Assembly: GCF_054482595.1 (NCBI RefSeq)
Contig: NZ_CM137008.1
Length of the DNA stretch: 64,000 bases
Reading direction: 5' to 3' (one strand)
Shown: positions 32,401 through 35,400 of the stretch, piece by piece
Layout of the letters: every line of letters starts with the position of its first letter
How positions within the stretch are numbered: position 1 is the first letter of the stretch
Program-made: the position numbers

Positions 32401-35400
32401 GCGGCTCTACCATATCTCCTATGAGCAACGTGTTAGCAGAGCCAAGCCACAACTCTAATTTTAATACATAATGAATGATAATAATATTAAAAATTTTCTG
32501 TGTAACTAATTTACTATATGGTTTCTGATAAGAATCATTGCAAAGATTAAACAACTTGTATTACATTGACAGTTAAGCAGTTAATTTTATCACCTCTAAA
32601 ATATATCAGCATCTAGCATGCAACCTATCAAAATGGAGATTTTTATGACTAAAAAACCATGGGAAAGAAGACTTAAAGATTTATCGCACTTGCTCAAATG
32701 CTGCATTGATACATATTTTGACCCTGAATTATTCCGCTTGAATTTGAATCAATTCCTCCAAACTGCAAGAACAGTAACATTTATTATTCAAAAAAACAAA
32801 AACCAGATTATAGGATATGACATTTGGTATAACAATAATGTTATTGAAAAATGGAAAAATGATCCATTAATGGCTTGGGCTAAAAATTCTCGCAATACGA
32901 TAGAAAAACAAGGCGATTTAGAAATGTATAGCGAGGCAAAGGCTACTCTTATTTCATCTTACATTGAAGAAAATGACATTGAGTTTATTACAAATGAAAG
33001 TATGTTAAACATTGGTATAAAAAAGTTAGTCAGACTTGCACAAAAGAAATTACCTTCATATTTAACTGAATCATCTATTATTAAATCAGAAAGACGATGG
33101 GTCGCTAATACGCTAAAAGATTACGAATTATTGCATGCCTTAGCTATAATCTATGGCAGAATGTATAACTGCTGTAACTCTCTTGGCATACAAATAAACA
33201 ATCCAATGGGTGACGATGTGATTTCGCCAACATCATTCGACTCTTTATTTGATGAAGCCAGGAGAATAACTTATTTAAAATTAAAAGATTACTCCATAAG
33301 CAAATTGTCATTTAGCATGATACAATATGATAATAAAATAATTCCTGAAGATATTAAAGAGCGTCTAAAACTGGTAGATAAGCCTAAAAATATCACTTCG
33401 ACAGAAGAGTTAGTTGACTATACAGCCAAGCTTGCAGAAACGACTTTTTTAAAGGACGGTTATCACATTCAAACATTAATTTTTTATGATAAACAATTCC
33501 ATCCAATTGATTTAATCAATACAACATTTGAAGATCAAGCAGATAAATATATTTTTTGGCGTTATGCAGCTGACAGAGCCAAAATAATAAATGCCTATGG
33601 CTTCATTTGGATATCAGAGCTATGGCTCAGAAAAGCAAGCATCAACTCCAATAAACCAATACATACAATGCCAATTATAGATGAAAGACTTCAGGTAATT
33701 GGAATTGATTCAAATAATAATCAAAAATGTATTTCATGGAAAATAGTTAGAGAAAACAAAGAAAAAAAACCGACTTTAGAAATATCAACAGCAGACTCAA
33801 AACATGACGGAAAACCATATTTCATGCGTTCAGTCTTAAAAGCAATTGGCGGTGATGTAAACACTATGAACAATTGAGTCATAGAACTTCCATTATTCTC
33901 CTGAAGATAATAATCGCCAAATAAACCAATACTCAGCTTTACAATATACTAACTAACCGCAGAACGTTATTTCATACAACGTTTCTGCGGCATATCACAA
34001 AACTATTATTCCATAACAGGGATTGCAGGCCACTCAATATCAGGTGCTACTGATGTATCAACTCGGTTCAGCAATACCCGATATGTCTTCCATGCCGCCA
34101 GTAACAATATCTCCTCCTCCGTCGCAATATCCAAATCTACCGCATCCTGAAGCGGCGCAATATGCTCACTGGCTACCCGCATGAGGCTGTTTTTTGTTTC
34201 TTCCGCCTCCCGTATACGAAACTGTTTTTCTGCTTCTGCATCTTTCACCCAGGTTGTGCCGTTCCACTTCTGATATTCCCCATCCGGCGACAACCAGGTG
34301 ACATTTTCCGGTAATGAGCCGAGTTCAGAAATAAATAACGCGTCCCCTGATGCCACGTCATAAACTGTTTTACCCCGATGGTCTTCAACAAGATGCCACG
34401 ATGCCTCATCACTGTTGAAAACAGCCACGAAGCCAGCCGGAATATCTGGCGGTGCAATATCGGTACTGTTTGCTGGCAGACCTGTATGAGGCGGAATGTA
34501 TGCGTCACCTTCACCAATAAATTCATTAGTTCCGGCCAGCAGATTATAAATTGTTATGGTCCGTGGTTGTTCACTCATTCTGAATGCCATTATGCAAGCC
34601 TCACAATATAGTTAAATGCGATGTTTTTGACGGTGTTTTCCGCGTTACCAGCAGCGTTAACGGTGATGGTGTGTCCGTGTGAGCCAATCGCAACGGAGTG
34701 CGTATGAGCACCAATACCGACAGTATGCGCGTGTGCACCTGCACTTGCAGCAGTACCTGACACCGGGTGGGTATGCGCTCCGGCTGACGATGTGCCAGTA
34801 CTCGAGCCTGCACGAGACGCACCTTTGAGGGCTTTATCGCCCTGCTCGGTATTGCCAGATGGGTAACAGGCAACCGTGTGTGTATGTGCCCCTGCAGAAG
34901 CAGCCGTACCACTGACACTATGGGTGTGCGCTCCGGTGTTATTCGTGGATTTAGTGCCGTAATCAAACGACGATGTGGTTTTCGTCCCCAAATCCGTACT
35001 GGATGCACTGGCACTGTGGGTATGCGATTTAATGCCGTCCTGTTCCTGAGATAATACGGCACGACCACTGGCGGGCTTGCCCTTAATCGTCCAGCCACGC
35101 ATATCAGGGATCACGCCTGACGGATAAGCGGCTGCAAGTTTCGGGTAGGCAGATTTGTCAAAAGTCTGCCCCTGCATCAGGGCATAGCCAGACGGAACGG
35201 TATCTGATGGCCACGGGATTGGTGCACCGACTGGATAAAACTCTGCAGGAGGATGAGCCGAGGTGTAAAGCTGCGCCCACGGCGACCAGTTTGCGTCGGT
35301 CGTATCCCGTCGTGAACGAATAAATGCCGGAGCATGAGCACCGCTTGTACCACCCCAGCCGATGAGTAACTCACCTTCGCCAACGGCTGTCATCCCTTTC

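What the first reader, a model, noticed from the sequence alone, without database searches (positions are those of the whole stretch)
32645..33877. 410-aa, ~30% GC, K/N-rich ORF of unknown function with its own RBS and long AT-rich leader
Longest cargo ORF. Good GGAG SD, a 434-bp AT-rich upstream region with several sigma70-like hexamers (e.g. TTGACA at 32566-32571), and no Walker, HEPN or nuclease motif I can recognise by eye. Its composition differs from both host and phage structural genes, suggesting separate acquisition.
Basis: seen in the sequence. Interest (0 to 1): 0.55.

Follow-up and report, generated by a model that had tools for sequence, protein, structure and literature searches.

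The report
Phage lambda's orphan gene ea47
The ORF is the long-known but never explained gene ea47 of bacteriophage lambda, sitting in a lambda-like prophage of E. coli. It is ordinary as a sequence feature, but its relatives across bacteria sit among anti-phage defence genes, which gives a testable guess at its function.

Summary
It is not new. It is gene ea47 of phage lambda (406/410 residues identical). Ea47 has its own PHROG and Pfam family (PF26900) and is dispensable for lambda growth. No function is reported in the papers I could search.

New here:
- The family is large (about 1,250 clusters) and always a single gene with no conserved partner.
- It occurs mostly in bacterial chromosomes and prophage cargo slots. 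It often lies next to recognised defence systems such as Lamassu, AbiTii and PDC candidates. Lambda's own Ea59/Ea31 neighbours match Septu PtuA and the PDC-M01 candidate pair.
- A confident AlphaFold model shows an N-terminal helical bundle. Its best enzyme-like structural matches are HEPN toxins. It carries an invariant R-N-x3-K-x-G-D motif, with His replacing Lys in 3 of 247 relatives. The C-terminal α+β domain has no structural relative.
- The AT-rich ea47 cassette is bracketed by a ~75-nt imperfect direct repeat, and a related prophage shows the empty site.

Best reading: a stand-alone conflict/defence protein, possibly a variant HEPN-like nuclease. HEPN membership is not established.

The parts
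32645..33877 (+). ea47 coding sequence (410 aa plus stop), 99% identical to lambda Ea47
   Evidence: PHROG 19262 E 8e-292; Pfam PF26900 on homologues
32635..32638 (+). Shine-Dalgarno GGAG, 6 nt upstream of the ATG
   Evidence: read from the sequence; the same start is used by PGAP
32566..32593 (+). promoter-like TTGACA-N16-TATCAC; function not shown
   Evidence: sequence; the homologous site is annotated as a promoter in phage HK629; such sites are not enriched over shuffles
32406..32644 (+). AT-rich leader proper (28.9% GC), part of the ea47 cassette
32645..33214 (+). N-terminal helical-bundle domain (aa 1-190) with inserted beta strands; the most conserved part of the family
32891..32917 (+). 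codons R83-N-T-I-E-K88-Q-G-D91: the family motif R-N-x3-K-x-G-D
   Evidence: R83 and D91 are invariant; N84, K88 and G90 are conserved in at least 90%; K in 244 and H in 3 of 247 relatives
33401..33844 (+). C-terminal alpha+beta domain (aa 253-400), no recognisable structural relative
32333..32405 (.). upstream copy of a ~75-nt imperfect direct repeat, ending in the hairpin 32372-32404; lies in a ~125-bp element (32278-32405) found in about 1000 E. coli genomes
33918..33991 (.). downstream copy of the repeat, with hairpin 33957-33990, between the convergent ea47 and tfa genes
   Evidence: a single chimeric copy abuts tfa in E. coli FDAARGOS_497
34006..34590 (-). tail fibre assembly gene tfa, convergent with ea47 as in lambda (context)
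31173..32210 (+). neighbouring non-lambda cargo ORF (345 aa, or 300 aa from the internal ATG at 31308); occupies the place of lambda ea31/ea59
   Evidence: no family hit; this pair occurs in only 6 E. coli genomes
30227..30829 (+). neighbouring non-lambda cargo ORF (200 aa; weak MotB/ZorB-like N-terminus)
29609..30070 (.). host DNA next to torT, present in 5419 of 5426 E. coli genomes; the prophage right end lies at about 30070

Best explanation
Shown: the ORF is gene ea47 of a lambda-like prophage integrated next to torT. It lies in the 'b region' between the tail-fibre assembly gene and the prophage end. It is intact, has its own ribosome-binding site, and is dispensable for phage growth.

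Inferred: Ea47 is a self-contained, horizontally mobile conflict protein, most likely a single-gene anti-phage or abortive-infection type system carried as prophage cargo. Its conserved N-terminal helical bundle carries the active or ligand-binding site. That site is formed by R42, Q49, K52, Y62, R83-N84-x3-K88-x-G90-D91, S96, R150, W152 and E161. It may act like a HEPN-type nuclease in which Lys replaces the usual His. The C-terminal alpha+beta domain, which has no known structural relative, would serve as the sensing or regulatory part. In some relatives this role is extended by fused SEC-C and TPR modules.

In the circular phage genome the gene is read from the early leftward transcript during lytic growth. 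In the prophage it would depend on its own weak promoter-like site.

Identity is near certain. The defence role is moderately likely. The nuclease chemistry is speculative.
For: Identity:
- 97.9% DNA identity and 406/410 residues identical to lambda ea47.
- PHROG 19262 match over the full length; PF26900 Phage_lambda_Ea47 on homologues.
- Same position and orientation relative to tfa as in lambda.

Functional constraint:
- About 1255 clusters at 50% identity. Relatives are full length (about 400-450 aa) in Proteobacteria, Actinobacteria and candidate-phyla-radiation (CPR) bacteria.
- 10 invariant and about 22 near-invariant residues persist at 23-30% identity.

Solo gene: in 21 loci no neighbouring gene family is shared by more than 4 loci.

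Defence neighbourhood:
- Lamassu LmuA/LmuB lie directly downstream in a Vibrio prophage (E 5e-119 and 9e-208).
- Lamassu plus PDC-S31 flank the gene in L010.
- PDC-S39 plus PDC-S31 lie upstream in L009, and PDC-S31 lies upstream in L018.
- A Pectobacterium island holds PDC-S15, AbiTii, a SIR2-like protein and a GajB-like helicase.
- Lambda's own neighbours Ea59 and Ea31 match PtuA (E 5e-184) and PDC-M01A/B.

Mobility:
- Solo copies sit between housekeeping genes or next to transposases.
- The gene occupies the nin region of a Cronobacter prophage.
- GC is below the flanks in 22 of 24 loci.
- The cassette is bracketed by a repeat, and an empty site exists.
- Among 50,697 phage genomes it occurs only in lambda and close kin.

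Structure:
- pLDDT 89, pTM 0.88.
- Lys and His interchange at motif position +5, coupled with N changing to V/T at +1.
- 6 of 7 long relatives add a SEC-C motif, and one also has weak TPR hits.

Expression in lytic growth: a Cas13a guide against ea47 restricts lambda.
Against: - No match to any of 5027 PADLOC models, including the island-derived PDC candidates, nor to NCBIfam or the local Pfam-A.
- No experiment links ea47 to any phenotype. Its loss has no reported effect.
- The strict Rx4-6H motif is absent.
- By the predicted secondary structure the motif lies at the C-terminal end of a helix (74-89), not at the start of the last core helix as I recall for HEPN domains.
- No profile-level similarity was found to solved HEPN chains or to RnlA.
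- Expression from the prophage is unproven. The promoter-like site is no better than chance expectation.
- The defence-island association rests on about a dozen hand-inspected loci, not on a statistical test.
Confidence: 0.45

Rival explanations
1. Ea47 serves the phage during lytic growth rather than the lysogen. Made early from the leftward transcript, it would modify or degrade host or competitor nucleic acids, counter a host defence, or exclude co-infecting phages. It would be dispensable in laboratory hosts.
For: By my recollection of the lambda literature, the protein was defined as an early (Ea) protein. The gene lies downstream of int/att on the leftward transcript of the circular genome. 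Its mRNA is present in lytic infection, because a Cas13a guide against it restricts lambda. Yeast two-hybrid hits with N and U were reported.
Against: Relatives are almost absent from sequenced phage genomes other than lambda. Many sit alone in bacterial chromosomes far from any phage gene or inside defence islands. That distribution is unusual for anti-defence or host-takeover genes. The two-hybrid hits are single or low-confidence.
Confidence: 0.25
2. Ea47 is a conflict-system protein but not a nuclease. The helical bundle would bind a nucleotide or a protein, like the substrate-binding four-helix domains of nucleotidyltransferases or adaptor bundles. The effect would be exerted by another activity or through host partners.
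Against: The density of invariant charged and polar residues (R42, Q49, K52, R83, N84, K88, D91, S96, R150, E161) looks more like a catalytic or phosphate-binding site than a protein-docking surface. The natural Lys/His exchange at one position fits a catalytic residue.
Confidence: 0.2
3. The gene is a functionless passenger, or a decaying remnant in this prophage.
For: Deleting it has no reported effect on lambda. The 8 nucleotide differences from lambda split into 4 synonymous and 4 non-synonymous.
Against: The reading frame is intact, with 0 of 2000 shuffles stop-free. Conservation is full length across about 1255 clusters down to 23-30% identity, with invariant residues. 120 E. coli genomes carry it, all covering at least 80% of the ORF and 119 at 99% identity or more.
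Confidence: 0.04

Closest known systems
Bacteriophage lambda Ea47 (gene ea47, lambdap80; Pfam PF26900 Phage_lambda_Ea47; PHROG 19262)
   Same: It is the same gene: 406/410 residues identical, the same leader, and the same position convergent with tfa in the b region.
   Different: There are four substitutions (T315I, Y334N, E372K, E389G). Lambda's ea31 and ea59 upstream are replaced by two unrelated ORFs. The prophage sits beside torT, whereas (from my knowledge) lambda integrates at its own attB.
HEPN-domain RNases: HepT toxins of HEPN/MNT modules (PDB 7ae2, 5yep), Csm6/Csx1, and single-gene Abi proteins with HEPN domains
   Different: There is no Rx4-6H motif: Lys occupies the His position in 99% of members. 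No profile similarity was found. The motif lies at the end of a helix that is followed by a beta strand. There is no antitoxin partner. A 220-residue C-terminal domain of unknown fold is attached.
Lambda Ea59/Ea31, which match Septu PtuA and the PADLOC candidate pair PDC-M01
   Same: They are neighbours of ea47 in lambda's b region and are likewise non-essential cargo.
   Different: They are unrelated proteins (an ATPase and an HNH nuclease) forming a two-gene system. They are absent from this window.
Prophage 'moron' or defence hotspots, such as the cargo slots near the att site or in the nin region of lambdoid phages
   Same: An AT-rich, self-contained cassette sits at a prophage end and is swapped between phages. 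The same family is found near integrases, after tail genes and in the nin region.
   Different: No phenotype is known for Ea47, and it is not in PADLOC.

Membership tests
Lambda Ea47 family (PF26900 / PHROG 19262) | Full-length sequence similarity to lambda Ea47 | tested here: met
   406/410 residues identical; PHROG 19262 match over 1-410, E 8e-292; all homologues carry PF26900
Lambda Ea47 family (PF26900 / PHROG 19262) | Position in the lambdoid b region, convergent with tfa, between the tail fibre genes and the prophage end | tested here: met
Lambda Ea47 family (PF26900 / PHROG 19262) | Dispensable for lytic growth and lysogeny | not testable with these tools
   Literature only: CRISPRi scores it non-essential; b-region replacement; ea47::ampR lysogens; the b519 truncation in viable phage O276
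HEPN superfamily | Four-helix up-down bundle core | tested here: inconclusive
HEPN superfamily | Rx4-6H catalytic motif | tested here: not met
   This protein has R83-N-T-I-E-K88. K occupies the position in 244 of 247 relatives and H in only 3
HEPN superfamily | Profile similarity to a known HEPN family | tested here: not met
   No HEPN family in Pfam-A for 44 members. PADLOC gave only two weak Cas13a-profile hits, E 0.01-0.03. PDB profile searches found no HEPN chain. hhalign against RnlA gave probability 0.1%
HEPN superfamily | Metal-independent RNase activity | not testable with these tools
   Needs biochemistry
PD-(D/E)xK nucleases (considered for the C-terminal domain) | Alpha-beta-beta-beta-alpha-beta core with D...(D/E)xK | tested here: not met
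Catalogued anti-phage defence systems (PADLOC-DB v2.0.0) | Match to a model of a known or candidate defence protein | tested here: not met
   0 families at E up to 1 for the protein, and at E up to 10 for the N-domains of 9 of 10 members
Two-gene toxin-antitoxin or sensor-effector operon | A conserved adjacent partner gene | tested here: not met
   No neighbour family is shared by more than 4 of 21 loci. PDC-S31 recurs next to the gene in 4 loci, but from only two lineages

The most novel reading that the evidence does not exclude
Ea47 is the founding member of a widespread, uncatalogued single-protein anti-phage (abortive-infection type) system. Its catalytic centre would be a HEPN-derived bundle that uses R-N-x3-K instead of R-x4-6-H, coupled to a sensor domain of novel fold. 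Lambda's b region would then be a two-system defence island (Septu-like Ea59/Ea31 plus Ea47) carried by the best-studied phage and overlooked for 50 years.
Probability: 0.25. Interest if true: 0.6.

Novelty: already known. Interest (0 to 1): 0.3.

Why it matters
As a sequence feature it is ordinary: a textbook lambda gene in a lambda-like prophage. It matters only because ea47 is one of the few lambda genes with no assigned function. The comparative evidence here turns 'unknown' into a cheap, direct experiment in the easiest system available. That evidence is its solo and mobile nature, its repeated embedding next to Lamassu, AbiTii and PDC systems, the Septu-like neighbours in lambda, and a conserved R-N-x3-K/H site. 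The experiment is to compare lambda lysogens or plasmids with and without ea47, plus point mutants, against a phage panel. A positive result would add a new single-gene defence family of more than 1,000 clusters, and possibly a new active-site variant of a helical-bundle nuclease.

Tried and rejected
- Family libraries gave nothing for Ea47 beyond its own PHROG. This covers PADLOC, NCBIfam and the local Pfam-A, including 44 distant members and isolated N-domains.
- PDB sequence and profile searches found nothing, or only spurious hits to a surface protein and the HIV integrase C-terminal domain.
- AFDB50 Foldseek returned only uncharacterised relatives.
- hhalign against E. coli RnlA, a HEPN toxin, gave no signal, but this is uninformative because the template was a single sequence.
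- The 'own sigma70 promoter cluster' idea fails: such sites are not enriched over shuffles.
- Rfam on 29600-34100 gave nothing above gathering score. There are no tRNAs.
- A conserved partner gene was not found.
- Literature searches for a function under 'ea47', 'PF26900', 'Ea47-like' and ea59/ea31 plus defense found only uses of ea47 as a dispensable insertion site.
- The lambda ribosome-profiling paper could not be retrieved, so expression in lysogens remains unchecked.
I could not verify whether the conserved residues cluster in space, or superpose them on the HEPN catalytic site.

Full report
**1. The observation**

Window 32645-33877 (+) is an uninterrupted ORF of 410 codons plus stop. 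It is preceded by GGAG at 32635-32638, 6 nt before the ATG. An in-frame ATG at 32618 would add nine residues. It has no ribosome-binding site, and neither the homologues nor RefSeq use it.

The ORF is 31.3% GC, with GC3 at 26.8%. The phage structural genes are 56.7% GC and the host tor genes 53.4%. None of 2000 shuffles of the ORF is free of stop codons.

The gap to the preceding ORF is exactly 434 bp. It is heterogeneous: 32278-32405 is 46.9% GC, and only 32406-32644 is truly AT-rich at 28.9%.

TTGACA is at 32566-32571 and can pair with TATCAC at a 16-nt spacing. The homologous site is annotated as a promoter in phage HK629. Sigma70-like sites in the region are nevertheless no more numerous than in shuffles, at 15 against 14.8 +/- 3.6.

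The description is therefore accurate. The promoter part is at chance level.

**2. What it is**

The DNA from 32278 to 34000 is 97.9% identical to bacteriophage lambda 22563-24289. The protein matches lambda Ea47 at 406 of 410 residues. It matches PHROG 19262 end to end at E 8e-292. All homologues carry the precomputed Pfam family PF26900, 'Phage_lambda_Ea47'.

The window is from E. coli EC5502, where the gene is annotated 'hypothetical protein'. The surrounding 24 kb of head and tail genes is about 96% identical to lambda-like temperate phages. As in lambda, ea47 converges on the tail-fibre assembly gene tfa. The prophage right end lies at about 30070, beside torT.

Lambda's ea31 and ea59, which lie upstream of ea47, are replaced here by two unrelated ORFs. 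That pair occurs in only six E. coli genomes.

**3. What is known**

In the searchable literature ea47 appears only as a dispensable gene:
- It is scored non-essential by CRISPRi.
- It has been replaced by cargo in engineered lambda.
- It is truncated by the classical b519 deletion in the viable phage O276.
- It is listed as function unknown, with weak two-hybrid hits to N and U.
- A Cas13a guide against ea47 restricts lambda, so the mRNA is made in lytic growth.

No paper assigns it a function.

**4. The family**

A word-indexed search found 456 relatives. A full profile search found 1255 clusters at 50% identity. Nearly all are 400-450 aa and align end to end.

Ten residues are invariant in a 44-member alignment sampled down to 23% identity: Y24, F30, R42, Q49, Y62, W78, R83, D91, S96 and W152. 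About 22 more are conserved in at least 90% of members, including K52, N84, K88, G90, R150, E161, H274, K301, E325 and E347.

Among 50,697 phage genomes the protein occurs only in lambda and its close kin. In complete E. coli genomes it is in 120 of 5426, and 119 of those copies are at least 99% identical. It is thus mainly a bacterial-genome and prophage-cargo gene that lambda happens to carry.

**5. Genomic habit**

In 21 loci the only gene family shared by more than four loci is Ea47 itself. It is a solo gene.

Its neighbours are often recognised defence genes:

| Locus | Neighbouring defence genes |
|---|---|
| L003, Vibrio prophage | Lamassu LmuA/LmuB immediately downstream (E 5e-119 and 9e-208), integrase upstream |
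| L010 | Lamassu plus PDC-S31 flanking |
| L009 | PDC-S39 and PDC-S31 upstream |
| L018 | PDC-S31 upstream |
| L006, Pectobacterium island | PDC-S15, AbiTii, a SIR2-like protein and a GajB-like helicase |
| Lambda itself | Ea59 matches Septu PtuA (E 5e-184) and PDC-M01A; Ea31 matches PDC-M01B |

Elsewhere the gene sits alone between housekeeping genes (Aeromonas) or next to transposases. It also occurs after tail genes or near integrases in viral contigs, and in the nin region of a Cronobacter lambdoid prophage.

In 22 of 24 loci its GC is below that of the flanks, by a mean of 9.3 points.

**6. Cassette anatomy**

The AT-rich unit made of the leader plus ea47 is bracketed by an imperfect ~75-nt direct repeat, at 32333-32405 and 33918-33991. 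The collinear segments lie at a constant spacing of 1585-1586 bp.

Each copy ends in a hairpin of the form CCGCAG(A/C)ACGT...CATAC...TCTGCGG. The stretches holding them fold better than shuffles, with z-scores of -3.2 and -2.8.

In E. coli FDAARGOS_497 a single copy abuts the 3' end of tfa, with sitABCD cargo on the other side. Its left part resembles the upstream copy here, and its hairpin resembles the downstream copy. That is the arrangement expected of an empty site.

About 1000 E. coli genomes have the ~125-bp element without ea47. The acquisition happened in the lambda lineage, not in this prophage.

**7. Structure and possible mechanism**

AlphaFold2 with a 42-sequence alignment gave a confident model, with pLDDT 89 and pTM 0.88. 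Residues 1-190 form a helical bundle with inserted strands. Residues 253-400 form an alpha+beta domain.

The family's strongest motif is R83-N-x-I-x-K88-x-G-D91-L. In 247 relatives the +5 position is Lys 244 times and His 3 times. The three His variants also change the Asn at +1 to Val or Thr. This echoes the HEPN 'R-N-x3-H' signature.

The link is not established, for four reasons:
- The strict motif is absent.
- No profile method connects the family to HEPN.
- The motif lies at the C-terminal end of helix 74-89, before a strand.

I could not inspect the model coordinates.

Six of seven unusually long relatives append a SEC-C motif, and one has weak TPR hits including TPR-S. As I understand such fusions, this fits an effector coupled to a sensor.

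**8. Judgement**

Identity with lambda ea47 is certain, so the feature is already known. The most likely role is a self-contained conflict or defence protein carried as mobile cargo, at roughly even odds. The HEPN-like nuclease chemistry is a lead, with perhaps one chance in four.

The main rival is a phage-side function during lytic growth. The next rival is that the bundle binds a ligand rather than cleaving one.

None of this can be settled computationally with the tools at hand. The experiments are simple.

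Noticed in passing
window 32278-32405 (also L011 4001-4123, L012 4001-4129): A ~125-bp non-coding element is present at 85-91% identity in about 1000 of 5426 E. coli genomes, always unannotated. It sits at junctions between prophage backbone and cargo. Examples are sitABCD next to tfa, and a McrBC-like pair next to a recombinase pseudogene. It ends in a strong hairpin. Its first ~25 nt resemble a tRNA T-arm and 3' end (GGAGGTTCAAATCCTCTC in L011), but ARAGORN finds no tRNA. It may be a fossil att site or a recombination linker.
   Followed up: partly
window 30227-30829 and 31173-32210: Two plus-strand cargo ORFs (200 aa and 345 aa) replace lambda ea59/ea31. They have no match in Pfam, NCBIfam or PHROGs. 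PADLOC gives only a weak MotB/ZorB-like hit (E 2e-3) at the N-terminus of the 200-aa protein. The pair occurs in only 6 complete E. coli genomes, once on a plasmid. The internal start of the 345-aa ORF reads MTAIACW..., which loosely recalls N-terminal-nucleophile hydrolases; this was not tested.
   Followed up: partly
L001 (lambda) 5510-7974, i.e. genes ea31 and ea59: Lambda Ea59 matches the PADLOC Septu PtuA profile over its full length (E 5e-184) and PDC-M01A (E 4e-201). Ea31 matches PDC-M01B (E 6e-113). By these models lambda's b region carries a Septu-like candidate defence pair.
   Followed up: partly
L009 6847-7815, L010 6749-7495, L018 1871-2839, L019 1311-2291: A DUF2971 / PDC-S31 single-gene defence candidate lies immediately upstream of the Ea47 homologue in four loci from two distinct lineages. 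This may be a recurrent pairing, or simply island clustering.
   Followed up: partly
AFDB50 hits; phage record MW057783: Fragments 94-100% identical to lambda Ea47 are filed under Xanthomonas, Paenibacillus, Neobacillus, Bradyrhizobium, Cronobacter, Vibrio viridaestus and Entamoeba histolytica. A 48-kb 'Campylobacter phage CJLB-4' record is essentially lambda. These are most likely lambda DNA contamination in public assemblies.
   Followed up: no
window 34049-34100 (-) and 30547-30715 (+): Sub-threshold Rfam hits to IS009 (31.9 and 18 bits, against a gathering score of 117). The first lies inside the 3' end of tfa and is cut off by the search boundary.
   Followed up: no
window 19001-21000, 1001-2000 and 57001-58000: These are other low-GC stretches (36-41% GC against a window mean of 52%). 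They may be further horizontally acquired cargo, but were not examined.
   Followed up: no
window 27915-30070: The prophage abuts torT, in the order torC-torR-torT then the prophage end. From memory, the torS-torT intergenic region is the attachment site of phage HK022. The integrase lies outside the window, so this could not be checked.
   Followed up: no
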